From NCBI GenBank assembly GCA_965214775.1, contig OZ243974.1, forward strand, positions 608,001 to 672,000: a DNA stretch of 64,000 nucleotides, in the 5' to 3' direction. The notes beneath the pieces were generated by a model that worked only from the letters and a program-made list of their open reading frames with translations, was not told the DNA's origin and did not search any database. Origin of the DNA: Nitrosopumilus sp. (GTDB taxonomy: Archaea > Thermoproteota > Nitrososphaeria > Nitrososphaerales > Nitrosopumilaceae). Positions 1-51,731 of the stretch are shown here, in pieces. A program made the translations under genes and the position numbers. The number at the start of each line of letters is the position of its first letter. Positions within the stretch are counted from its first letter, which is position 1.

Positions 1-367
1 CAGTGCTGGTGATCTTATTGAGTTCAAAATCGTCAGAAATCTGTTCTTGCCAGATTTTTGACGTGTGGATATTGCATCGAAAACTAGAATCTTTTGTTAG
101 ACCTGCATAATCTGGAAAGAGCCATTTATTGCCATCATGGTATGTAGGGATTTTGTTTTTGATTAAATCTAGTATATCTAACGTTAATGATATCCCACTT
201 CTGTTTCCAATAATGCCTATACGTATGCTTTCTAATGGAAAATCTTCATCTTCATATCTAAATGGCCCATATCTGGATAGTCCAATTTTGGGATCCTGCT
301 CTTCATTTCTACCACCAAACACTAGCTGCGGTTCTCTTACAAACTCAGTGCTAAACATCGGCCTCAT
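1..367 (-). CDS. ago: Short prokaryotic Argonaute (pAgo), N-terminal 122 codons; gene runs off the left edge
   Basis: Hand translation from ATG 367 (alternative 358) is open to base 1: MRPMFSTEFVREPQLVFGGRNEEQDPKIGLSRYGPF...IRIGIIG...LFPDYAG. EPxLxFG...DPxxGLxxYGP, IRxGIIG and FPxF/Y are the typical N-terminal motifs of short pAgos. Start overlaps the stop of the upstream APAZ gene. Confidence 0.85.
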   Translation of the reverse strand, partial: MRPMFSTEFVREPQLVFGGRNEEQDPKIGLSRYGPFRYEDEDFPLESIRIGIIGNRSGISLTLDILDLIKNKIPTYHDGNKWLFPDYAGLTKDSSFRCNIHTSKIWQEQISDDFELNKITST

Positions 368-1832
368 CGTTATGTCTCACTTCCAATACATTCGCTTCCA
401 CTTCTGGTTCATAATTTTCTATCATATTTTTTAGATCTGTTGTAGGTCTGTCCCAAGAAATGCCATATTTTGACTTTGTTTGAATGGGTTCGGATGATAT
501 CACAAAATCTTCCAAGACATGTATGTCATTCCCATTACTGAGTTTGTTACTCCAAAATAAAATGTTGTTTAGATGTGCATCATTGTACTTGTTGTAGGAT
601 AATTTTGTGATTATGGTACCTTCTCGTAAACCAGATATCACTCGACGGCCATCAGATGTAATAACAAACGTAGGACTAATTTTAAGATAGAATTTTTTAT
701 TTATTTCTTCAAAAGATGCTTTGATTGCCGGATGTAATATAATGTCAGATTTTATTTGTGAAGCATGCATTGGATTAGCTACAATTCTACGAGCTGCTCT
801 AAATTTTGAAGGCCAGGACATAAATCGTTTTTGATTGTCAGAGGAGAAAAATAATTTTTTAGTTTTACCGTTAAACCTCATCCCTTGTTTTATTCCACAA
901 CCAGCAATCTCTTTGTTCATTAAAGATACAACTATGTTTCTTTTGTCTTTGTCATCTAACCATTGTGATGTTTTTTCAATAGCGATAGTTGATGTGTCTA
1001 CAAGACGTGAATAGGGATTCGTGGAATCTGTCAAGTTTTGTAGTGAAATCAATTTGTTTTCGCGAAGGATGATCAAATCAACGGGATATGTCATGTGTTT
1101 TTTTAACTCATTAGCAATGTCTTCTCTATTAAAAAATTTTGAAGTTCCAAGGAATATTTTTTCAGGAAATTTTTTTATTTCAAATAAATTACTGTATAAT
1201 GTTTCGTCTATTTTATCAGGCTCTCCTGAGATTATTGATATGTTATAGTTTTCATCTTTAACCCTCTGATTTATCCAGTCAATTTCAAATTGTGAGGCAG
1301 GAATGCTTTGAGTTCCACGTCTGATGAAGACTGTTCCTTTCTTAAATGCAGACAATTGCTTGGGGTTATCGTCATACTTGAAAAACCCATCTTTTTTTGG
1401 TATGGCCAGTTCACGTGAAGGTTTTACATAGATTAATCCAAATCGTCGTCGCTCACCATCCACGGTTTTATAAAATTCATCATAGCAGATTTCAAGAATC
1501 GTGTTAGAGTAAGAATCAAGTTTCTGTTGCAGAGTAGCTGGCTCTAAATGAAAATGCGTAGGCAGTCCAGTGGGAAGAAATTTGCCCTTTACCTCTGGAT
1601 CCAAATGTTGGTTTTCAGCCATTCCAAGTAAAACAAAACCCCCACCATAATTTGCAAATGCTAGAGCATCCTTGACAAATTTTGGAAAATCAGAATTTTT
1701 CTCTGTGCTGATAATTCGTTTGTAATCCAGAAACGGGGTTTCTTTTTGTAATGAGAATAGGTAGTTTTTTACAAAATCTCCTGTTGGATCAAATAATTCG
1801 TCATTTATCCTTACTCCCACTTTGTCAGACAT
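351..1832 (-). CDS. Schlafen/AlbA_2-APAZ fusion protein, partner of the short pAgo
   Basis: N-terminus has AlbA_2 motifs ETPFLDYK and DALAFANYGGGFVLLGMAE, plus VFIRRGTQS. C-terminal half has APAZ-like segments ETLYSNLFEIKKFPEKIF and LKISPTFVITSDG...YNDAHLNNILFW...ISSEP. Confidence 0.82.
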   Translation of the reverse strand: MSDKVGVRINDELFDPTGDFVKNYLFSLQKETPFLDYKRIISTEKNSDFPKFVKDALAFANYGGGFVLLGMAENQHLDPEVKGKFLPTGLPTHFHLEPATLQQKLDSYSNTILEICYDEFYKTVDGERRRFGLIYVKPSRELAIPKKDGFFKYDDNPKQLSAFKKGTVFIRRGTQSIPASQFEIDWINQRVKDENYNISIISGEPDKIDETLYSNLFEIKKFPEKIFLGTSKFFNREDIANELKKHMTYPVDLIILRENKLISLQNLTDSTNPYSRLVDTSTIAIEKTSQWLDDKDKRNIVVSLMNKEIAGCGIKQGMRFNGKTKKLFFSSDNQKRFMSWPSKFRAARRIVANPMHASQIKSDIILHPAIKASFEEINKKFYLKISPTFVITSDGRRVISGLREGTIITKLSYNKYNDAHLNNILFWSNKLSNGNDIHVLEDFVISSEPIQTKSKYGISWDRPTTDLKNMIENYEPEVEANVLEVRHNDEADV

Positions 1833-2954
1833 GTTTATTTTTGGTATTGTTAATTTATTTATTTACCGATTGGCATTTTTTTACAACAGGATCGAGTTTG
1901 TGAAGAATTGGCCCGTGGTTTACTGCCGATCATAAATCATTGAAAAATAACGAGTCTCTGTGGATGAACCCATGATGCAATCTCTATACTGAGTCTCTTG
2001 CACTTTTTGCACAACTCGGAAAGGCATTCCAGTACGGAAAAACACTGAAAATCCAAAAATTCAAAGGCCACTCTCGTTAGAACCCAAAGGACATCATCAA
2101 AAAATATGATGAGATTACTCAAGTTGGATTATCTTTTCATGACTCTAAATCAGAAAATTTGACTCCGGAAACGACTTTTCGTATACGAAGGCGGATAATC
2201 AAACCAAAAGGACAATCAGAACCAAAAGTTTTGGCTCATTTTGAATTCAGGAGTGGGGGAAAGAGACATCAAAAATCGATGAGCTGTCCTCATAATCCAA
2301 AGCAAACCTACATGATATAGTATCCACAAGTTATGTCAGAAAAAATCATGATTGTGTAAATTTGAGAAGATAATCTTCTCAGACGGGCAGACGGGGGTCG
2401 ATGAATAGCTAAAAACTCTAGACTTTTGACGGGCAAAAGACTCAAAAGATTACAAGGTGTATAGTATAATGTGACAGGATAGAAAGGGAAATAGCCAATA
2501 CCCTCAGATTTTGTAAACTCCGTGTTTTCATGCTCATTTGACTCCTGTCACGTTCTTGATATTCCTCCGTGTATAATATTATAATTTCAAAATTGGTTAT
2601 CTGTGATTGATCGTAATAATTTCAGTCCACGAATGATGATTTTATCTCGTCGGTCAGAAAATGTTAGTATGGAGTCTGAGGAAATTTTTCACTCAGGTAA
2701 AGATGAGGGACTGGGGCGACTCTGACGTCCCAGAAGGTTGTGGTGTACAGGGCCCACGTCGGGGGTCCGGGAGTTTTTGGTTTTCAGGACCCGGATGGGG
2801 CCTGATGTGTATGGTGGATAGGAGGCCCGGAAGGGTATTCGTGGGAGATTCAGCTGGTCGTTTTTGTGTCTAGTGAAGTAATGCGAGAGGTTCGGGTCAA
2901 GTGCCGGCAACGTCAGGTAGGAAAAATAGTGAAAATGTAGCTTTTTGCGATAGT

Positions 2955-3139
2955 CAAAAGTTACACTATGTACATTTTTGGGCGGCCAAAAGTTACACTA
3001 TGTACATTTTTGGGCGGCCAAAAGTTACACTATGTACATTTTGGGGCGGCCAAAAGTTACACTATGTACATTTTGGGGCGGCCAAAAGTTACACTATGTA
3101 CATTTTGGGGCGGCCAAAAGTTACACTATGTACATTTTG
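2955..3139. repeat. Tandem array of a 32-bp unit (caaaagttacactatgtacatttt(t/g)gggcggc), about 5.8 copies
   Basis: Units start at 2955, 2987, 3019, 3051, 3083 and 3115; no spacers. Confidence 0.97.
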
Positions 3140-3189
3140 TACATTTTGCAAAAAGTTGGCCCTTAAACGTGAAATTACAGATACAGTAC

Positions 3190-3486
3190 ATGCCTGAAAA
3201 AAAATACTATAGAAAGGTGCGCAGGCAGGGCCATAGCCTCGTCATCACGATTCCAAATGCGCTGGTGGAGAATCTCGACATTGACGAGGATCAGATCGTC
3301 GAGTTTGTGAGTTTTGAGGATCGGATGGAATTAGTCCCCATGCGGACCCAGCACACCTCATCAAGCGAAGGCGGCAAGGACAGGTACGATCTTGCGCTTG
3401 ACAGGGCAATGGAGAACTCCAAAAAGCACAGGGAGGAGCCGGATGCCTCCTATGATAAAAAACTGGAAAGGCTGCACCTCAAATGA
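3190..3486 (+). CDS. AbrB/MazE/SpoVT-family DNA-binding protein (98 aa)
   Basis: RKVRRQGHSLVITIPNALVENLDIDEDQIVEF swapped-hairpin motif; TTAAA box 27 nt upstream of ATG 3190. Confidence 0.85.
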   Translation: MPEKKYYRKVRRQGHSLVITIPNALVENLDIDEDQIVEFVSFEDRMELVPMRTQHTSSSEGGKDRYDLALDRAMENSKKHREEPDASYDKKLERLHLK

Positions 3487-6400
3487 CCAGGGCCGTCACT
3501 CCCTGCCTCTCCCTTTCTTCCAGGGTCTCGAAGATCTTGTGGATCTTCGGGCTCCTTGACCACACGTGACACTGCTCAAACCCCAGTCTTGGCCACTTTG
3601 TCATGTTGTACCTGACATGCTCGGGGTGGCTCTGGACTTCTGCGGCAGACTCTATCTCCACGCTTATCGGCGTCTCGTTATAGTAGTCATAGGCGACAAG
3701 GTCCGTCCTGTCCTGCCCCTTCCTGATCCTCTGGGAGGCCAGGGTTACAAACATCCCCTTCTTCAGATACGTGTCAAATATCTTCCTGGTGACTGCCTCT
3801 ATCTCCTGTGCAGACCCGATCTCTGCAAAATCCAGGTCAAAGTATGTCCTTTTGGAGCTTTCGGTGAGCTCGTACGGGGACAGCCTGTTTTCGGGCTCCG
3901 TCTTTGCCACCAGTTTGCGGGCCACCAGATCCTTGAGGACCTTGAGGACCTCGGACCTGTTTGAGACCCGGAGCCGGGAGGCCATGTCCACCTGCTGCAT
4001 GGGCTTTCCTCCCCCTCCTCCTCCTCCCAGCAGCATCAGCATTATCCTCCACTCCATGTGCGTCGGAAATCTGACGGATATGCTCTCAAGCCACTTGTTC
4101 CTGTTTGCGGCAGTCTGCCTGACAATCGTGTCCTCCACCGTTCCCCTGCCGTACAGGGCAAGCTGCTCGGCGAGAAACTGCCCATACGCGTCTCGCCTGT
4201 CAGGGGCTCGGGGGGCATGTTGAGCCAGAACTGTATCGGGGGCGGCTGTTCCTCGCCCGGAGGCGATTTTTCCCGTATGGTCCAGTGAAAGTATTCCTGG
4301 CTTGCAAACTGCTGCATGAGCTCCTTTTGGAACTGGGGATCCCATATCTGTGATATTCTGGAGGCGTCCTTGCCGTTGACCTTGCCGATCAGCTGGGTTC
4401 CGGAGTTTCCCGTAATCAGTCCCAGCTGCTTGTCGCTGATCTGCTCTGTGGTCTGGTGTGACAGGATCAGCCCCAGTCCCAGGGATCGCGCCTGCTCCAG
4501 CATCAGCTGCAGCACCTGGAGATCCTTGACTATCTGGAACTCGTCCAGGGCAAGGATCACCTGGGTCCTGTTCTTCTCGTCGGGGATCCTGTTTGCGCGC
4601 TCCTGGACGGTAAACCACAGCTTCAGGATGAATGCCTGCATGGCCAGGGGCTGCACGTGGTGGGGCATGTTGAGCGGGGATATCCTGACGACCGTGTACC
4701 TGCCGGACCTTATTATCTCGTTGAAATCGACCGTTCCGTGCCTTACGGAGAACATTCTTTTCAGGACGGGATCCGTGGCAAACTGCTCTATCCTGTTTAG
4801 CAGCGGGGTAAACGCATCCACCTTCAGGGTTGCGATACTCTCAAGGGCCTGCTCCATCTCCGTGTCCGGGGTCCCGAATGTGTCCATTATCTTTGGCAGC
4901 GCGTCGTTCTTGTCGCGCTGCAGCCGCAGTATGATGTCATGGATGTCAAGAAACGTGGGCGCGTCATGCCTCATGTATATGTAAAACAGCAGCGCGCGGA
5001 ATATCCTCTCCATCTGGACAAAGCTGGCAGACTGCTGGTACCACTCCTCGATGGTCTTCATGAAATAGCCCACGTACCTGGACACCACCTCCTCGCGCTC
5101 GCGCGGCCGGTGCGCGGGCAGCTCCAGCGGATTGATTGAGAATCGGGTCTGCTGCGGATCCAGAAAGTGAATCCTGTTGTCGTCCAGGGTGTCGGGCTCA
5201 CACTGCTTGATGAACTTGTGCGAATCATCGCCCTTGGGATCTACATACACGAACGCGTTGGGAAACTCCCCGGAATTGTTCCACATCTCCAGATGCTTTG
5301 CAAGAATCCTGATGAGCGATGTCTTGCCGGAGCCTGATGCGCCCACGGCGTACACGTGGTTTGCAAAGTCGCCGGTGGATATCACTGCAGCATCAATGTC
5401 TTTGGATTTGCTGATCGCCCCCCATAGCGCACTCCAGTCAAACGTCTCGGACGTCCTTGGCTTGAAGAATCCCAAGCTCGAGCCGATCTTCTCGGAAGGC
5501 TTGGCGGGAATCGCGACTCCCCGCGTGGTGCTTATGTTCGGGGTAAACGGGTTTGGCAGGTGTATGAACAGCGGTATCTCCGACAGGTTCAGTATCAGAA
5601 ACGGCAGCGGCGTCCGCTCCCTGTACCCGCCAATCCAGCCCCTCTCAAAGTATCGCGCAAACGCCCCGTCCAGAAACGGTCCCGGGTCGGGCAAAAGCCT
5701 GGACTCGAACATCCTGATTCTCTGATGTTTCTGGGAATCACCGCGGATTCTGATCAGGGGTGCCTTCTTCTTCCTGCCCTCGGAATAGAACTCGCCGTAC
5801 TTGTACCGGAACTTTGTGAGATGCTCGTGTCCGGAGCGGATGTTCTCAAGCGGAAGCGCCTCTATCTCGTCAAAGTGCAGGTCGATGTCCGAGTCGCTCT
5901 GTATCACGCCCCTGATGCTCATCAGCATGTGCGCGCTCTGCATCTTCAGCGTGGCGTGCTTTTGCAGTCCGGTATAGTTGTTGGTAAAGTCGTATCCCAT
6001 CTCAGGGTGGTCGTGCGGCTGCCTGTCGGGATGCATCAGTATCTCCGTGTTGGACAGGTACCTGCCGCGCCTTATCTCGATGTTCTTCTCATCCAGGCGG
6101 GTCACGTGCCTGCGCAAGAACGCGTTAAAGCTGTAGTGCCTGAATGCAAACTGTATCCATGCGTATTTGGACAGCTGGATCGTGTTTGCGATCTGGGTTA
6201 TTATCTGGTGTGACTTTGTCTGGTCAAATACTGCGGTATAGTGGCCGTGATAGGTCCCCACGTCAAACACCTGGTACTCTGACTTTGCGTCAAACCATTC
6301 CGGCGTGATCCTCCTGAGATCCTCGAACGCGGCGTTTGGGTACATGTTTGCAAACGCCTGCTTGAAGCTTGGGAGGTCCTTGGACTCCCCGACCAGGACG

Positions 6401-6624
6401 AACTGGAGCCGCTTTTCCGTGCTGTCCCACCACATCTCAAAGCTTCTGATGCCTGCGCTTACAAGGCCGCCCGCGGACAGCACCGCCTCCTTTTTGTCCA
6501 TGGTGATCGGGATCATTACGGAGCATGCGGCCAGCCTGTTAGGCGCTGCAAGAAATTTCGTTATGCCGTCCAGCTGGCCCTTCTGCTTTTTCGTATTTGC
6601 AAGATGCCATCGCCGCGAGCCCAA
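3479..6624 (-). pseudogene. virD4: VirD4/TraG-like (HerA-FtsK superfamily) coupling ATPase with C-terminal wHTH and PD-(D/E)xK-like domain, split by a -1 frameshift near 4190-4215 (about 1048 aa if rejoined)
   Basis: Walker A GASGSGKT, VDPKGD, FSINPL, Walker B LALDEFQ and ARSLGLGLILSHQ in ORF 4042-6624. Protein-like sequence continues in the frame of ORF 3479-4618 from DAYGQFLAEQ. The frameshift may be real or a sequencing error. Confidence 0.8.
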
Positions 6625-6924
6625 ACCATGAGAAAATCCCGGTTTGCCATATAAGGAGGTCCAGATGCAGGCGTTTCATTTCACCGCCTGCCTTGAACGA
6701 ATTATCCCGCTCGCCAGAATCTGCTAATTTCGAGTCAGATCTCAGGCCTGATCCGTATCAACTTCATATACAATAAACAAGTGCCTAGCGCCAGAATGAA
6801 AAACAGAGATCATCCTTGCCTTTGGGTCTGACTGTATGAAGTCATTGATCAGGCGCGTGTCGATACCTGGCGAATCTTCACTCCAAGACTTGCCCTTTCA
6901 AACACCAGGGTTTGGTTTCAATGG

Positions 6925-7257
6925 TCATGGTACGTACAATTCAGTCTTTTGTTCCAGGCACGCATCGATCTGGTCGGCGATAGAATTCAACTGCAATACC
7001 TGCTGATCGGTAAACCTGGGCGTCTCCTGATGCAGTACCGGCAGCTCCATATTCAACGACTCATTGAGATCCTGCAAGTCATCCGGACTGCCGACCAACT
7101 GGCACAGCCTTAGATTTGATTCCATGATGCCTATCCAGTCCTCTGCTGACTGTCTTTCTACGGACTGCTGGTCAGATACGCTCGTAATGACTGCAACAAT
7201 GCCCACTGCAACAACTATGCCGGCTATTGCAAGTCCAAGACCTCTTTTTTTATTCAT
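6925..7257 (-). CDS. Membrane-anchored/secreted hypothetical protein
   Basis: MNKKRG followed by a hydrophobic helix, then a helical soluble domain. Confidence 0.65.
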   Translation of the reverse strand: MNKKRGLGLAIAGIVVAVGIVAVITSVSDQQSVERQSAEDWIGIMESNLRLCQLVGSPDDLQDLNESLNMELPVLHQETPRFTDQQVLQLNSIADQIDACLEQKTELYVP

Positions 7258-7490
7258 TTGGCTTCTGGCCGGCGGGTGGCCATAAAAAAGTTGGGATGGG
7301 ACGGTTAGCCGTCTACGAAAATTAGAAAAACTGGCCGTGTCAAAAACCGTAAATCACTTCGAGTCCGGGCTGTTGCAAACCAAGGCAGAAAAGCACGCTT
7401 CAAACCATGCCCGATAACGGAACAAAAACAATGATCCCTTTCAGATGTCACTGCAAGGGCCCAGAAGATATTAAGAAATATGGAAAAAAA

Positions 7491-8327
7491 TTATGATTTG
7501 GCGGCCATGCTGTAAAGCCCCCTTGCGTTGCTCATTACGGGATCATCCGGAATCACAATCTTGAATTTCTTCAGCCCTTCCAGCAGGGCACTGTTCATCC
7601 CGGGCAGCAGCAGCCCTCCTCCGGACAGTGCTATGGGGTACCTGTTGCCATAGTTTTCGGACATCTCGCAGATCTCGTTGATCAGGTTTTCTGCCATGAT
7701 CTTTGTATAGATCTTGCAGGTATCTGAATTTTCGTAGATCCTTTGAACGTCCAGATGCGCGAACTTGCCAATCTTTTTTGTGACAAAGCTGGACGCCCAT
7801 TGTGAACTCTCGCCATCGATTACCTCGAGTGCGTCTATCACGATGATCTCTGTTGTGCCCTGTCCGATCGACACCACGATGCCGCTTTCCCGTTTGAGAT
7901 CAACCAGGGTTCCGGATGCCTGGGCGACCACGATGCATTTCTCGGCGCCAAGTATCCTTTTTACCGTTCTTGACATCGAATCCCTATAGTCAAACGCGTG
8001 ATATGGCAGGCCCACTGCTATTCTCGTGGGCGTGTCCGTGCCCATGGGAATCTTTGCAAGTCCATAGACCTGAGACATTGATTCTTTTATGATCATCTCT
8101 GCCTGTTTTTGGTATTTTGGATCAGGCCTGCCTTTCCGGATTGGGCTTATTGCGCTGGCCCCCATCGTAGACAGTATTGACTGTGCCTGTGTTCCGACCA
8201 GCTCCGATGTCTTGCTTGTCCAGTTCCCGTGGATTCGCTTTACATAGACGGACGGAAATCTGAAAGAGCCATGGTTTGAGACGCACTTTACGAATCCCGT
8301 TCCGATGTCAAGTCCTATCTTTAGCAT
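7491..8327 (-). CDS. ParM/StbA-like actin-fold ATPase (278 aa)
   Basis: Phosphate-1 IGLDIGTGFVK, connect-1 VVAQASG, phosphate-2 VSIGQGTTE, adenosine ALSGGG, connect-2 DDPVMSNARG; TTAAAT 27 nt upstream of ATG 8327. Confidence 0.88.
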   Translation of the reverse strand: MLKIGLDIGTGFVKCVSNHGSFRFPSVYVKRIHGNWTSKTSELVGTQAQSILSTMGASAISPIRKGRPDPKYQKQAEMIIKESMSQVYGLAKIPMGTDTPTRIAVGLPYHAFDYRDSMSRTVKRILGAEKCIVVAQASGTLVDLKRESGIVVSIGQGTTEIIVIDALEVIDGESSQWASSFVTKKIGKFAHLDVQRIYENSDTCKIYTKIMAENLINEICEMSENYGNRYPIALSGGGLLLPGMNSALLEGLKKFKIVIPDDPVMSNARGLYSMAAKS

Positions 8328-8388
8328 ACAATGCAAGGCGTCAGGGCAATTTAAGGGGCAGATGACCTGCGTTTGGGATCCATAGATG

Positions 8389-8415
8389 TGGACGCGGCCG
8401 GGATTTGAATCCGGG
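8389..8415 (-). other. Decayed tRNA-Ala 3'-end fragment (att-like relic)
   Basis: Minus strand reads cccggattcaaatcccggccgcgtcca (T-arm plus acceptor 3' strand, with one T-stem mismatch and one extra base); same orientation as tRNA-Ala at 46592. Confidence 0.5.
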
Positions 8416-8557
8416 CATCTTTGGGTCTTTTGTAAGCCATTAACGGTACGTAAAGGAATCATACGCGAGGTCAAAGGCATCCTGCGTCTGCTGCTCCTTC
8501 AAACCCCCTCCATGACGTCAGATCTGAGATACTTGGCCGATACAAGGCTCTGTTAAC

Positions 8558-10405
8558 TCAACCGCTTGATTCCATGTGTTTATGTGCCATGGTAATGTAT
8601 CCCAATAGCCCGTCTCTGTCTACTAATCTCACACCTGTGCTATCAGCCAGCGTGCGTGCTGCTTTTGTAAATCCCGAATTCGTGATCACCCATCCTTCAT
8701 CTGCGCCATAATGATTAAGACTTGCATGTACCTCTTGTATTGCCTTGTTGCCTACATTGTTGAAATGTCTTTTGGCTTGTACTGATATCGTTTTACCGTC
8801 TTTTTTCATAAGAAGATCACATCCAAAATCACCTGTTGCACGTGTCATTGTTACTTTGTAACCTAACTCTTCAAATATTTCTTTTAACAATACTTCGAAT
8901 TCATGACCTTCCATCACATCCATTCTCTCTGCGCCAAATCGAATTTGTGCCTCGTGCGCTATACGTTCACCCTCCTTTTTGTCGTGCATGTAAATTCCTA
9001 TTCCAATCACAAGTACGGCGCAGGCAATGCCCCAGATAACAAATCCAAGTGTATCATTAGAGAAAAAAACCACAACAGATAATACCCAAACAACAAATGA
9101 GGCGGCACATATTGCTGTCCCACGGCGTCCGTTCACTTGTTTCATATGGAAATTGGTTCCGCCCCTCATTAGCATCCTTCTCCACTCCTTCTGGATCCTT
9201 TTGTAGCGTTTGATGAACGCAGCTATGACGACAAGCAACAGAAATAAAACCACAATGATGAGAATCTCCGATCCGGTCTGAGGAGGCGGCTGTGCCGGCT
9301 GCGCCTGTGCAGGCTGTTGTACTGGTACACTGCCAGATGATACGGATCTTGCAGGCAAACCAGGTGCCGGCTGCGCCTGTGCAGGCTGTTGTACTGGTGC
9401 AGTTTTTACCGTAACTGTAAACTTTACTGAAGAGGTTTGTATACCATCAGACACAGATACCGTAAAGTCATGCCTGCCCACGTCGTTTGCTTCGGGAGTC
9501 CATTTTATCACTCCGGTGGATTGGTTTATGGTGGCTCTGCGTGGCGCGTTGTCCAAAGCGTATGTAAGTTTGTCACCATCACCATCCGTTGCCTTGACAG
9601 TATGCTCAAATGCATCCTGCGTGGTTATTGTTTGGTCTGCAATTAGGCTTGGTGACGGTGAGTTGTTAGTGGAAGGTGACTGCGTGGGTATGAGAAACTC
9701 AAAATCGGCTTTGGCTACAGTGCTCATGTAGTGTGCCTCCACCGTATAGGTGCCATCCGTCTTCCACAACGGCTTGTCTGTCAGTACATCAATGAGAAAT
9801 TCACCGTTGTCGACAATCAGCTGTTCTACACGAAGCATGCTGTCGTTCGGCGTCCTGATGATGACGGTCACATTGTTGTCATATGAATCGGTATGGGCGG
9901 TGATTACTTTTCCCGATATGGTTATCTGGTCTCCTAGATTGTATTTAGAACTGTCAGTCTCGACCGCCAGTGATATTGCCTGGGCGGGTGTAGGTGACTG
10001 CCTGTTGATGCTTGAGTATGCGGAGGGATCTTGTCTGACCTCAAAGGTAAGCTGACCCATGCTGCCACCGTCCTGATTCCGACCAGATACAATGTAAGTT
10101 CCCAATTGGGAATTGTAGTCAAGTGGCAAGGGGATCTCAAACATCCCATCAGAGCTTGTTGATATTTTATGCCTTTCCACCGAGTCATTCGGCGCCGTAA
10201 TGATGATCTCGACCTCCTGCCTGTAATCAAGATTAGTCCAGCCAGATATTTTTACAACTGTTTCCTTGTATTTCTCTACAAAGTACAGGTGAGGATCAAC
10301 TTCGATCCCGCCGTTTCTGGTTTCGACTACAACGGCAAATACCCCCGGCTGCCAAATACCAATGATGAGCAGGGTCACGCAAGCACAGGAAGTTATGCTA
10401 TACAT
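8558..10405 (-). CDS. Secreted Ig/cadherin-like domains + 3 TM helices + C-terminal Mrr-family restriction endonuclease
   Basis: Signal peptide; Ig-like repeats; cadherin/He_PIG-like ATDGDGDKLTY...GVIKWTP; duplicated PVQQPAQAQPA linker; three hydrophobic helices; Mrr_cat motifs EFEVLL, GDFGCDL, VQAKR, VITNSGFT. Confidence 0.85.
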   Translation of the reverse strand: MYSITSCACVTLLIIGIWQPGVFAVVVETRNGGIEVDPHLYFVEKYKETVVKISGWTNLDYRQEVEIIITAPNDSVERHKISTSSDGMFEIPLPLDYNSQLGTYIVSGRNQDGGSMGQLTFEVRQDPSAYSSINRQSPTPAQAISLAVETDSSKYNLGDQITISGKVITAHTDSYDNNVTVIIRTPNDSMLRVEQLIVDNGEFLIDVLTDKPLWKTDGTYTVEAHYMSTVAKADFEFLIPTQSPSTNNSPSPSLIADQTITTQDAFEHTVKATDGDGDKLTYALDNAPRRATINQSTGVIKWTPEANDVGRHDFTVSVSDGIQTSSVKFTVTVKTAPVQQPAQAQPAPGLPARSVSSGSVPVQQPAQAQPAQPPPQTGSEILIIVVLFLLLVVIAAFIKRYKRIQKEWRRMLMRGGTNFHMKQVNGRRGTAICAASFVVWVLSVVVFFSNDTLGFVIWGIACAVLVIGIGIYMHDKKEGERIAHEAQIRFGAERMDVMEGHEFEVLLKEIFEELGYKVTMTRATGDFGCDLLMKKDGKTISVQAKRHFNNVGNKAIQEVHASLNHYGADEGWVITNSGFTKAARTLADSTGVRLVDRDGLLGYITMAHKHMESSG

Positions 10406-51388: not shown

Positions 51389-51731
51389 AAAATCAGAGGA
51401 TTTTTCAGGCAGTCATACTAGACCTTGTGCATAATCGGCGCAGATCAAAAAAACCAAGCAGTTTTTACGTCATTTTTGACAAATACGCATAGTCTACTAC
51501 CAGAGCCAGTTTGATCTTCATGTCCATGAGTACGAATTTCACAATCATGATTCCTGCAAAAATGTCGACAAGTGGGGGGGCTTGCGTGATTCTCATTTGG
51601 ATTACTATCAAAAACCGTGCCACCCTTAGGAAGTTCGCCACAACAGGGCATCTAAGACGGTCAGATTCTTACAATGTTTTCCAAGTGATCTCTGAAAAGT
51701 ACGAAGAGAAAGAAAAGGAAGAAAATTCAAG

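What the first reader, a model, noticed from the sequence alone, without database searches (positions are those of the whole stretch)
1..1832. Short Argonaute paired with a Schlafen/AlbA_2-APAZ effector in a thaumarchaeon: candidate guide-activated RNase immunity system
Seen: a 493-aa gene with an N-terminal AlbA_2/Schlafen domain that keeps acidic residues at the expected catalytic positions (E31, D36 in ETPFLDYK; E73 after the GGxxxxG strand) and a C-terminal APAZ-like domain. Its stop overlaps by 17 nt the start of an unlisted ORF with short-pAgo motifs (EPQLVFG, DPKIGLSRYGP, IRIGIIG, FPDY). Established: short pAgos form heterodimers with effector-APAZ proteins; characterised effectors are TIR (SPARTA), SIR2 (SPARSA) and DNases (SPARDA-type), and Schlafen domains are tRNA/rRNA endoribonucleases. 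Inference: recognising invader DNA through the guide would switch on tRNA/rRNA cleavage and dormancy. Schlafen-like domains have been noted near pAgos bioinformatically, but I know of no characterised system of this type, least of all in ammonia-oxidising archaea.
Basis: partly seen in the sequence, partly recalled or inferred. Interest (0 to 1): 0.92.

Follow-up and report, generated by a model that had tools for sequence, protein, structure and literature searches.

The report
Archaeal short Argonaute with Schlafen-APAZ partner
An ammonia-oxidising archaeon carries an intact, horizontally acquired two-gene defence cassette: a non-cutting short Argonaute sensor plus a partner that joins a Schlafen-type RNase to the Argonaute-docking APAZ domain. 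It probably cuts tRNA when foreign DNA is detected; this pairing is already listed in surveys but has never been tested.

Summary
Window 351-1832(-) encodes a 493-aa protein. Its N-terminal domain is Schlafen/AlbA_2 (Pfam PF04326; best fold matches are all mammalian Schlafens). E31, D36 and K38 are invariant in 59 of 59 relatives, and E31/D36/E73 align to the rat SLFN13 catalytic triad. Its C-terminal half is an APAZ domain (PADLOC 7e-36; fold matches to SPARDA, SPARHA and SPARTA APAZ chains).

The overlapping ORF continues beyond the window edge into a 517-aa MID-PIWI short pAgo. Its nearest solved relatives are the SPARDA and SPARHA Argonautes (about 1e-63). Two of the four catalytic positions could be aligned, and both are non-acidic.

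The gene pair is conserved in 18 of 20 related loci, all archaeal, and is fused into one ORF in three of them. No third gene is conserved.

The most likely mechanism, by inference only, is an RNA-guided, DNA-triggered tRNase causing abortive infection.

The class is not new. It is listed in surveys from 2018 to 2026, a fused Schlafen-long-B Argonaute was shown in 2026 to cleave tRNA, and this scan had already met the class in at least 17 other genomes. No experimental study of the SLFN-APAZ/short-pAgo form was found. I rate it a new member of a known kind, of moderate interest.

The parts
351..1832 (-). SLFN-APAZ gene, 493 aa (effector subunit)
   Evidence: ORF. Pfam PF04326. PADLOC APAZ (PNTD) models. 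At least 120 full-length relatives. AF2 model with mean pLDDT 83.4.
1248..1832 (-). Schlafen/AlbA_2 nuclease-type domain (residues 1 to about 195)
   Evidence: The N-domain model has pLDDT 86.3 and pTM 0.83. The 16 rows listed through rank 19 of its PDB Foldseek search are all mammalian SLFN5/11/12/13/14 structures, E 5e-5 to 3.5e-3. The N-domain profile matches SLFN13, CbCash, SLFN14 and SLFN11 chains.
1719..1742 (-). E31-x4-D36-x-K38 nuclease motif (ETPFLDYK)
   Evidence: Translation. E31, D36 and K38 are invariant in 59 of 59 and 18 of 18 sequences. They align to E-x4-E-x-K of the SLFN13 chain 5yd0_A and to the position mutated in the SLFN14-E211A entry. The motif is described for SLFN-pAgos.
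1614..1616 (-). E73, third acidic residue of the putative triad
   Evidence: Translation. It aligns to the second D of GVDDE in 5yd0_A, which I take to be SLFN13 D248. In the family it is E in 46, Q in 9, P in 2, D in 1 and K in 1 of 59.
405..1226 (-). APAZ domain (residues about 203-476)
   Evidence: PADLOC PDLC02415 at E 7.2e-36, residues 203-458. PDB phmmer matches the SPARHA chain 9om4_A at 3.4e-12 and the SPARDA chain 9qbp_A at 1.7e-6. Foldseek best matches are APAZ chains of SPARDA, SPARHA and SPARTA, down to E 1e-15, with TM up to 0.81 on the target.
354..428 (-). Disordered acidic C-terminal tail (last 25 residues: 8 acidic, 1 basic)
   Evidence: Translation. pLDDT is below 50 for residues 477-493. 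In the family the last 25 residues have a median of 9 acidic and 1 basic residue, and net charge is -3 or lower in 51 of 59. An acidic C-tail plugs the guide-target channel in SPARTA; applying that role here is inference.
2..367 (-). First 122 codons of the short pAgo gene; the remaining 395 codons lie beyond window position 1
   Evidence: The full 517-aa protein matches PADLOC pAgo_I at 6e-143 and the PDB chains 9qbp_B at 2.7e-63 and 9om4_B at 2.5e-62.
1851..1865 (-). AT-rich TATA-like box, 19-33 nt upstream of the SLFN-APAZ ATG (possible leaderless promoter)
   Evidence: Read directly. This is inference only; no transcript data are available.
1915..1968 (.). Upstream arm of a 54-nt imperfect inverted repeat that brackets the operon; the partner arm lies outside the window at L002:10655-10708
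   Evidence: One search reports 72% complementarity. The perfect 15-nt core occurs only at these two places in the 2.83-Mb genome. None of 200 shuffles reached 15 nt. Its function is unknown.

Best explanation
This is a self-contained two-gene short-pAgo immune module of the SLFN-APAZ type. The 517-aa MID-PIWI Argonaute lacks a working slicer site. It pairs through the APAZ domain with the 493-aa partner to form a heterodimer. The complex loads a 5'-phosphorylated small guide, most likely RNA as in its nearest solved relatives, and scans for complementary invader DNA. Before the target binds, the acidic C-tail of the partner probably occupies the nucleic-acid channel. After the target binds, the complexes oligomerise. 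That brings single-lobed Schlafen domains together into the bilobed geometry the nuclease needs, and the E31/D36/E73 metal site then cleaves host tRNA (possibly also rRNA). Translation stops and infection or plasmid establishment is aborted. Shown here: gene identity, domain folds, conservation of the catalytic motif, obligate gene linkage and fusions, and foreign base composition. Inferred: guide and target type, tail autoinhibition, oligomerisation, tRNA as substrate, and the abortive outcome.
For: Domains. Pfam SLFN_AlbA_2 scores above its cut-off. The APAZ half matches PADLOC, PDB sequences and Foldseek. The N-domain model's best fold matches are all Schlafens.

Catalytic site. E31, D36 and K38 are invariant in 59 of 59 relatives, and the AFAN box N61 is invariant too. 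The HMM alignment places E31/D36/E73 on the E-x4-E...D triad of the SLFN13 chain. Mutating that triad abolishes or diminishes tRNA cleavage (passages).

Precedent for the motif. E(x)4(D/E)xK plus a SAFAN box is the stated hallmark of SLFN-pAgos. RzAgo cleaves tRNA only after guide-dependent target-DNA binding, and its D32A mutant is dead (passages). CbCash, a tRNase, carries the same E-x4-D-x-K.

Sensor. The pAgo is a full-length short pAgo. Its closest solved relatives are the SPARDA, SPARHA and SPARTA Argonautes. TtAgo D546 and D660 align to T371 and S494; position 371 is S, T or K in 14 of 14 family members. The MID residues R220-K224-Q235-K273 are conserved, with R in 11 and H in 3 of 14 at the first position. 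This is the RK/HK type stated for short pAgos.

Linkage. A pAgo lies directly downstream in 18 of 20 related loci. Single-ORF fusions occur in L015, L018 and L019 and in P0122-P0124. No other gene is conserved across 17 loci.

Tail. An acidic C-tail is present in 51 of 59 relatives, as in SPARTA autoinhibition.

Context. Neighbours include AbiU/AIPR, PDC-M48B and a second Schlafen gene. The operon GC is 35.8% against 47.1% for the genome, in the lowest 0.18% of 3-kb windows.
Against: I found no experiment on any SLFN-APAZ/short-pAgo system. The function therefore rests entirely on homology.

The Pfam score is only modestly above its cut-off (31.6 against 25.3 bits). The Foldseek TM-scores to Schlafens are low (0.32-0.40 on the query, rmsd 9-14 A).

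The third acidic position is not invariant: it is Q, P or K in 12 of 59 relatives.

The characterised SLFN-pAgo needs a GHKL ATPase to tetramerise and build the active Schlafen dimer. This protein has no ATPase domain, so a different, unknown assembly route must be assumed.

The nearest solved systems, SPARDA and SPARHA, are collateral DNases (abstracts), so a DNA substrate cannot be excluded from sequence.

TtAgo D478 and E512 could not be aligned reliably.
Confidence: 0.62

Rival explanations
1. The architecture and trigger are the same, but the Schlafen domain acts as a broad collateral nuclease. It would cut rRNA, mRNA or single-stranded DNA as well as RNA, as SPARDA does, and would not be a tRNA-specific enzyme.
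For: The closest solved pAgo and APAZ relatives belong to SPARDA and SPARHA, and both are non-specific nucleases once activated (abstracts). SLFN13 and SLFN14 also cut rRNA (abstract; PDB titles).
Against: Every prokaryotic Schlafen characterised so far in the papers I read cleaves tRNA. These are RzAgo, CbCash and the bacterial Schlafens (abstracts only). The nuclease domain is not related to DREN or HNH.
Confidence: 0.2
2. The AlbA_2 domain is a non-catalytic nucleic-acid-binding module, as it was annotated in 2018. The complex would then act by binding or sequestering targets, or by recruiting another host factor.
For: Ryazansky et al. classed Schlafen/AlbA_2 as a DNA-binding domain. Some mammalian Schlafens lack nuclease activity (introduction passage). 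Sources name relatives 'ATP-binding protein' or 'putative DNA-binding domain protein'.
Against: E31, D36 and K38 are invariant in 59 of 59 relatives, and they sit at the positions whose mutation kills SLFN13 and RzAgo. That conservation is hard to explain without catalysis. No third gene is conserved that could serve as the effector.
Confidence: 0.08
3. The cassette is a recently acquired passenger that is silent or decaying in this host and does nothing there.
For: Its base composition is strongly foreign. One congeneric genome, G181, carries a copy broken by three stops. The system is sporadic: full-length SLFN-APAZ matches occur in 7 of 401 genomes of the class.
Against: Both ORFs are intact and of family-typical length: 493 aa against 451-505 aa for the two-gene relatives (ATG-start lengths), and 517 aa against about 500-541 aa. 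All invariant residues are kept. A plausible TATA-like box lies upstream.
Confidence: 0.07

Closest known systems
SLFN(Schlafen/Alba)-APAZ + short pAgo operons, as catalogued in surveys
   Same: Everything tested matches: an N-terminal AlbA_2/Schlafen domain, a C-terminal APAZ domain, and an overlapping downstream MID-PIWI pAgo. The listings are: the 2023 SPARTA preprint 10.1101/2023.07.12.548734, which names Schlafen/Alba among APAZ-appended domains; Kuzmenko et al. 2026, Fig. [quoted passage not shown]
   Different: Nothing structural differs; this locus is a member. The class has no experimental characterisation in the library I searched. The nearest entry in Ryazansky 2018, og_40, is SIR2_1 fused with Schlafen and APAZ. 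That is a different architecture.
SPARHA (short pAgo + HNH-APAZ; PDB 9om4) and SPARDA (short pAgo + DREN/DUF4365-APAZ; PDB 9qbp, 9qcc, 9jsb)
   Same: These are the nearest solved relatives of both subunits. The pAgo matches at 2.5e-62 and 2.7e-63. The APAZ half matches at 3.4e-12 and 1.7e-6 by sequence and at about 1e-15 by fold. They are two-gene heterodimers that become active by filament assembly once the target is recognised (abstracts).
   Different: Their effector domains are an HNH or a PD-(D/E)xK DNase. Here it is a Schlafen RNase-type domain. Those systems are bacterial, whereas this family is almost entirely archaeal.
SLFN-pAgo (RzAgo of Runella zeae; bioRxiv 10.64898/2026.05.29.728809)
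   Same: An Argonaute sensor is coupled to a Schlafen effector that carries E(x)4(D/E)xK and a SAFAN-type box. Guide-dependent recognition of target DNA licenses tRNA cleavage and abortive infection.
   Different: RzAgo is a single polypeptide of 1,071-1,187 aa in the long-B clade. It has a PAZ domain and a GHKL ATPase that drives tetramerisation. Here there is a short pAgo, an APAZ adaptor on a separate chain, and no ATPase. The authors describe the SLFN domains of APAZ proteins as only distantly related to their Clade II.
SPARTA (short pAgo + TIR-APAZ)
   Same: A heterodimer of a short pAgo and an APAZ protein; the pAgo matches at 1.8e-52 over its full length. SPARTA has an acidic C-terminal tail on the APAZ subunit that plugs the guide-target channel, and this family has a comparable acidic tail.
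   Different: The effector is a TIR NADase. The role of the tail in this family is inferred from composition only.
Stand-alone and CRISPR-linked prokaryotic Schlafens (CbCash, PDB 9ylu; bacterial Schlafens, PMC13056530)
   Same: They share the single-lobed Schlafen nuclease domain. The N-domain profile matches CbCash at E 5.8e-4, and CbCash has the same E-x4-D-x-K motif. They are tRNases that become active through oligomerisation.
   Different: Their sensors are Csx15/cA4 or other fused domains. They involve no Argonaute and no APAZ domain.

Membership tests
Short prokaryotic Argonaute (MID-PIWI) | MID and PIWI domains only; no N or PAZ domain | tested here: met
   The protein is 517 aa. PADLOC pAgo_I (PDLC02376) matches residues 6-517 to profile positions 2-455 of 455 at E 6e-143. 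SPARTA short pAgos of 507 aa align end to end, 9-516 against 6-506.
Short prokaryotic Argonaute (MID-PIWI) | PIWI lacks the DEDX catalytic tetrad | tested here: met
   hhalign of the 14-sequence pAgo alignment against TtAgo gives probability 94.7. D546 aligns to T371, which is S, T or K in 14 of 14. D660 aligns to S494, a variable position that is acidic in 2 of 14. D478 and E512 could not be aligned reliably. That the tetrad is D478/E512/D546/D660 is recalled; one search confirms only the residue types at those positions.
Short prokaryotic Argonaute (MID-PIWI) | MID 5'-phosphate pocket of the HK/RK type | tested here: met
   The motif is R220-K224-Q235-K273. K224, Q235 and K273 are invariant, and position 220 is R in 11 and H in 3 of 14. 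In the low-confidence part of the hhalign alignment these fall on TtAgo R418, K422, Q433 and K457; the role of those TtAgo residues is recalled. Ryazansky states that short pAgos have the HK/RK type.
APAZ-domain effector partner of short pAgos | A C-terminal APAZ (N-L1-L2-like) domain homologous to those of solved SPARTA, SPARDA and SPARHA partners | tested here: met
   All ten PADLOC matches fall within about residues 185-461, and the best (PDLC02415) has E 7.2e-36. phmmer matches 9om4_A at 3.4e-12. Foldseek gives E about 1e-15 and target TM up to 0.81.
APAZ-domain effector partner of short pAgos | Encoded next to, and physically paired with, a short pAgo | tested here: met
   The pairing is kept in 18 of 20 related loci, and single-ORF fusions exist. 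Physical binding itself was not measured.
Schlafen (SLFN_AlbA_2) nuclease | AlbA_2/Schlafen C-lobe fold | tested here: met
   Pfam PF04326 scores 31.6 bits against a cut-off of 25.3. The N-domain model has pLDDT 86.3. All 16 rows listed through rank 19 are Schlafen structures, although the TM-scores are only 0.32-0.40.
Schlafen (SLFN_AlbA_2) nuclease | E(x)4(D/E)xK motif, a third acidic residue, and a SAFAN-type box | tested here: met
   E31, D36, K38 and N61 (in AFAN) are invariant in 59 of 59. E73 is acidic in 47 of 59. They align to the SLFN13 triad.
Schlafen (SLFN_AlbA_2) nuclease | Metal-dependent cleavage of tRNA or rRNA | not testable with these tools
   This needs biochemistry.
SPARDA / SPARHA | DREN (DUF4365, PD-(D/E)xK) or HNH nuclease domain N-terminal to APAZ | tested here: not met
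   The matches to 9om4_A and 9qbp_A cover only residues 185-478 and 209-398, which is the APAZ half. The N-terminal domain is AlbA_2. The locus is therefore a sister type and not a member.
SLFN-pAgo (RzAgo type) | A single long-B pAgo polypeptide with SLFN, a GHKL ATPase and a PAZ domain | tested here: not met
   Pfam finds no GHKL/HATPase domain in either protein. The pAgo is a short type. There are two genes, and the fused relatives are SLFN-APAZ-MID-PIWI without an ATPase.

The most novel reading that the evidence does not exclude
SLFN-APAZ/short-pAgo systems are an almost purely archaeal branch of Argonaute immunity. They would switch on a Schlafen tRNase without any ATPase. Target-DNA binding expels an acidic C-tail from the Ago channel, and Ago-driven oligomerisation alone then assembles single-lobed Schlafen domains into the bilobed active nuclease. 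That would be a second, independent solution to the problem RzAgo solves with a GHKL domain. It would also be the first RNA-degrading effector in the short-pAgo clade and the first Argonaute defence shown in ammonia-oxidising archaea.
Probability: 0.4. Interest if true: 0.6.

Novelty: new member of a known kind. Interest (0 to 1): 0.4.

Why it matters
Short pAgo systems characterised so far kill or arrest the cell by depleting NAD (SPARTA, SPARSA) or by collateral DNA cleavage (SPARDA, SPARHA). A Schlafen-APAZ partner would add translation shut-off by tRNA cleavage to that list. It would also link two immune families that prokaryotes and humans share.

The family lacks the ATPase that the only characterised Schlafen-Argonaute uses for activation, so it is a clean test of how a single-lobed Schlafen domain is switched on. 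Its near restriction to archaea, including ammonia oxidisers, ANME/Methanoperedens, Bathyarchaeia, DPANN and Asgard lineages, makes it one of the few candidate archaeal abortive-infection systems with a testable mechanism. An RNA-guided, DNA-triggered RNase could also serve as a detection tool. This particular locus adds one intact example and little that is conceptually new.

Tried and rejected
Schlafen-domain dimer. Complex prediction on two copies of the Schlafen domain (alignment A3, residues 1-200) returned 'no answer (no support, and no evidence against)' with scores of 0.00 and 0.00. It says nothing either way about dimerisation.

Expression. The look-up of sequencing runs listed no RNA holder.

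Cassette in other contexts. Read laying with runs X5-X8 on L002:9500-15000 showed only fragmentary contigs identical to this genome. It gave no information on whether the cassette occurs elsewhere. It did reveal a multi-copy repeat at L002:10405-10487.

General flanking repeats. I tested whether a flanking inverted repeat is a general feature of the family. It is not: of 16 loci that could be tested (17 examined; L015's flank was too short), only this one reached a repeat that none of 200 shuffles matched. L018 had 11 nt, matched by 2 of 200 shuffles.

Integration site. I looked for an att-type direct repeat of the tRNA-Ile at L002:1063-1150 within G000 400-900 kb and found none with 18-mers. 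The island borders remain undefined.

First two tetrad positions. An extended hhalign run (-mact 0.01) to place TtAgo D478 and E512 gave zero-confidence columns in that region, and I did not use them.

Family libraries. Pfam finds no family in the pAgo at E <= 0.01. NCBIfam names neither protein: it has no match for SLFN-APAZ and only sub-threshold argonaute matches for the pAgo.

Third component. The two small ORFs downstream (L002:9499-9978 and 9975-10274) recur in no other locus, so I rejected a conserved third component.

Supplements. The supplementary tables of Ryazansky 2018, Supplementary Data 3 of PMC13462974 and the Extended Data of the 2026 RzAgo preprint may list this family or this very locus.
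Full report
OBSERVATION. The window is G000:C1:608001-672000 of a single-contig 2.83-Mb genome. One search lists a 493-aa ORF at 351-1832(-) and an ORF at 2-367(-) that runs off the window start; the two overlap by 17 nt (351-367). I fetched the adjoining DNA as L002 = G000:C1:596001-612000. There the second ORF is a complete 517-aa gene at L002:10814-12367(-).

THE EFFECTOR SUBUNIT. Pfam places SLFN_AlbA_2 (PF04326) on residues 31-179, at E 2.6e-7 and 31.6 bits against a cut-off of 25.3. PADLOC matches only the C-terminal half. Ten 'Aga_...-PNTD1-PNTD2' and pAgo models all fall within about residues 185-461, and the best has E 7.2e-36.

A phmmer search of the PDB finds only APAZ-bearing partners of short pAgos: the SPARHA HNH-APAZ chain 9om4_A (3.4e-12, residues 185-478) and three SPARDA DUF4365-APAZ chains.

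An AlphaFold2 model built on 59 relatives has a mean pLDDT of 83.4. It shows two confident domains joined by a low-confidence linker (residues 201-204), and a disordered tail (residues 477-493). Its best PDB fold matches are the APAZ subunits of SPARDA, SPARHA and SPARTA, at E down to 1e-15 and target-normalised TM up to 0.81.

I modelled the N-terminal 200 residues separately (pLDDT 86.3, pTM 0.83). All 16 rows listed through rank 19 of that search are mammalian Schlafen structures (SLFN11, 13, 14, 5 and 12), at E 5e-5 to 3.5e-3. The TM-scores are modest, 0.32-0.40.

THE CATALYTIC SITE. I aligned 59 of the 120 listed homologues. E31, D36, K38, N61, R171 and R172 are invariant. E73 is E in 46, Q in 9, P in 2, D in 1 and K in 1 of 59.

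A profile of the N-domain (18 sequences) matches PDB Schlafen chains. It aligns E31-x4-D36-x-K38 with E-S-A-S-I-E-F-K of the SLFN13 N-domain chain 5yd0_A. It aligns E73 with the second D of G-V-D-D-E. It aligns D36 with the position mutated in the SLFN14-E211A entry.

In rat SLFN13, E205, E210 and D248 form the metal-binding active site. E205A and E210A are 'absolutely inactive', and mutating any of the three diminishes activity (PMC5862951, passages). That the chain numbering of 5yd0_A is offset by 13 from the published numbering is my inference from the motif.

The 2026 RzAgo preprint defines the hallmark of Argonaute-linked Schlafen domains as E(x)4(D/E)xK plus a SAFAN box followed by a Gly/hydrophobic stretch (passages). 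This protein has ETPFLDYK and LAFANYGGGFVLLG. CbCash, a cA4-activated tRNase, also carries E-x4-D-x-K.

THE SENSOR SUBUNIT. The 517-aa protein matches PADLOC pAgo_I over the whole profile at E 6e-143. Its best solved relatives are the Argonautes of SPARDA (9qbp_B, 2.7e-63), SPARHA (9om4_B, 2.5e-62) and SPARTA (8ifk_B, 1.8e-52, end to end). SPARSA follows at 1.4e-22, and long pAgos are only marginal. Pfam finds no family in it.

To test the tetrad I took the Thermus thermophilus Argonaute gene from pTT27 and compared it with a 14-sequence alignment of the SLFN-linked pAgos. hhalign gave probability 94.7. D546 aligns to T371, which is S, T or K in 14 of 14. D660 aligns to S494, which is variable. 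D478 and E512 could not be placed. Two of the four slicer residues are therefore demonstrably missing.

The MID motif R220-K224-Q235-K273 is conserved, with R or H at the first position. It is of the RK/HK type that Ryazansky et al. state is typical of short pAgos.

CONSERVED PAIRING. A scan of one genome per species returned 26 loci. Twenty of them (L003-L022) encode real SLFN-APAZ relatives, and all twenty are archaeal. They come from Nitrososphaeria and Nitrosopumilaceae, ANME-1, Methanoperedens, Methanomassiliicoccaceae, Archaeoglobus, Bathyarchaeia, Nanoarchaeota and Woesearchaeota, and Thorarchaeota.

In 18 of the 20, tblastn finds the pAgo directly downstream on the same strand. Of the other two, L017 is cut by its contig end. 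L020 holds only a 120-residue fragment with no pAgo in the remaining 1.7 kb.

The other six loci are bacterial. They match only parts of the Schlafen domain, with no APAZ and no pAgo.

In L015, L018 and L019 a single open frame of 953-982 codons spans both proteins. A search for longer proteins found three further fused forms of 995-1020 aa, and one of them aligns to the whole pAgo at 49% identity.

Clustering all ORFs of 17 loci found no other gene shared beyond close relatives. The module is therefore two genes, or one fused gene.

HOW COMMON IT IS. Among 1.84 billion 50%-identity representatives, 51 reach E <= 1e-30. Of the 150 listed, 39 span both domains. This is a small family.

In a sample of 401 genomes of the host's class, full-length matches occur in 7, including this genome and one copy broken by three stops. 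Six further genomes have other APAZ proteins. Among the source names, one relative is labelled bacterial (a Hyphomicrobiaceae MAG).

HOST AND CONTEXT. The genome encodes archaeal AmoA at E 3e-116, so the host is an ammonia oxidiser. This is its only pAgo.

The operon GC is 35.8% against 47.1% for the genome, which puts it in the lowest 0.18% of 2,831 3-kb windows.

It lies in a mosaic island downstream of a tRNA-Ile gene and an IS240-type transposase gene. The island also holds a second Schlafen protein, a PDC-M48B metallo-beta-lactamase-fold protein and an AbiU/AIPR protein. On its other side is the element that other first-stage notes read as an ICE.

MECHANISM. What is shown: gene identities, folds, conservation of the active-site motif, obligate linkage and fusion, and foreign composition.

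What is inferred by homology to SPARDA, SPARHA and SPARTA (abstracts) and to RzAgo: the heterodimer loads a 5'-P guide, probably RNA; binding of complementary invader DNA triggers oligomerisation; this activates the Schlafen domain, which cuts tRNA and aborts infection.

Two points are specific to this family. First, the last 25 residues are strongly acidic. The median is 9 acidic against 1 basic residue, net charge is -3 or lower in 51 of 59, and the proteins overall are 14.5% acidic. The tail is predicted to be disordered. In SPARTA such a tail plugs the guide-target channel and autoinhibits the complex. In the fused relatives this region is a short, less acidic linker.

Second, RzAgo needs ATP-driven tetramerisation through a GHKL domain to pair two single-lobed Schlafen domains into an active horseshoe. 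This family has no ATPase, so assembly must be driven by the Ago-APAZ core, as in SPARDA and SPARHA filaments. That step is open.

NOVELTY. Schlafen/Alba is named among APAZ-appended domains in a 2023 preprint. [quoted passage not shown] 1e of the 2026 RzAgo preprint. A 2026 Nature Communications paper lists Schlafen 'Cluster 6' as linked to short pAgos. Ryazansky 2018 listed a related SIR2-Schlafen-APAZ orthogroup.

Four full-text searches found no experimental work on the SLFN-APAZ/short-pAgo form.

The scan's own notes show 19 earlier findings of this class in at least 17 genomes, with the same reading. I therefore file this locus as a new member of a known, catalogued but untested kind. 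Interest is moderate, 0.4.

Noticed in passing
window 1915-1968 and L002:10655-10708 (outside the window, about 106-160 nt beyond the pAgo stop): A 54-nt imperfect inverted repeat (72% complementary) brackets the two-gene operon. Its perfect 15-nt core occurs at exactly these two places in the 2.83-Mb genome. None of 200 shuffles reached 15 nt. The feature is absent from the 15 other family loci tested. It may be the ends of the inserted low-GC cassette.
   Followed up: partly
L002:10405-10487 (G000 606400-606490); further copies at G000 601022 and 602737, and at window about 51417-51497: An 80-bp palindromic, MITE-like repeat has 41 matches across the genome. Copies sit between successive gene cassettes of the defence island. 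Public assemblies show depth spikes and many loose ends at this spot.
   Followed up: partly
window 2465-2580: A second dispersed repeat family of about 100 nt has 8 copies in the genome.
   Followed up: partly
L002:3705-5015(+) (G000 599705-601015): A 436-aa protein has an unassigned N-terminal region of about 300 residues and a strong C-terminal SLFN_AlbA_2 domain (E 2.8e-23) with an E-x4-E-x-K motif. It is a candidate stand-alone prokaryotic Schlafen defence gene about 7 kb from the pAgo operon. A third AlbA_2 gene lies at G000 884159-884575.
   Followed up: no
L002:5232-6110(+), 6114-6714(+) and 6858-8726(+): The island alternates between low-GC and high-GC cassettes. One holds a metallo-beta-lactamase-fold protein (PADLOC PDC-M48B, 4e-52) followed by two small ORFs. 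The next holds an AIPR/AbiU protein (1.1e-32).
   Followed up: no
window 2911-3166 (L002:14911-15166): Six tandem 32-bp units lie directly upstream of a MazE/AbrB-fold gene at window 2968-3486. Another first-stage note also flagged this.
   Followed up: no
L042 (G181:C1:44007-47879): A congeneric genome carries an SLFN-APAZ gene interrupted by three stop codons (TAG, TAA and TGA). This is a decaying copy of the same system.
   Followed up: no
L015, L018, L019; proteins P0122-P0124: Single-chain SLFN-APAZ-MID-PIWI fusions of 953-1020 aa occur in Bathyarchaeota, Thorarchaeota and uncultured archaea. In them the acidic tail is replaced by a short, less acidic linker.
   Followed up: partly
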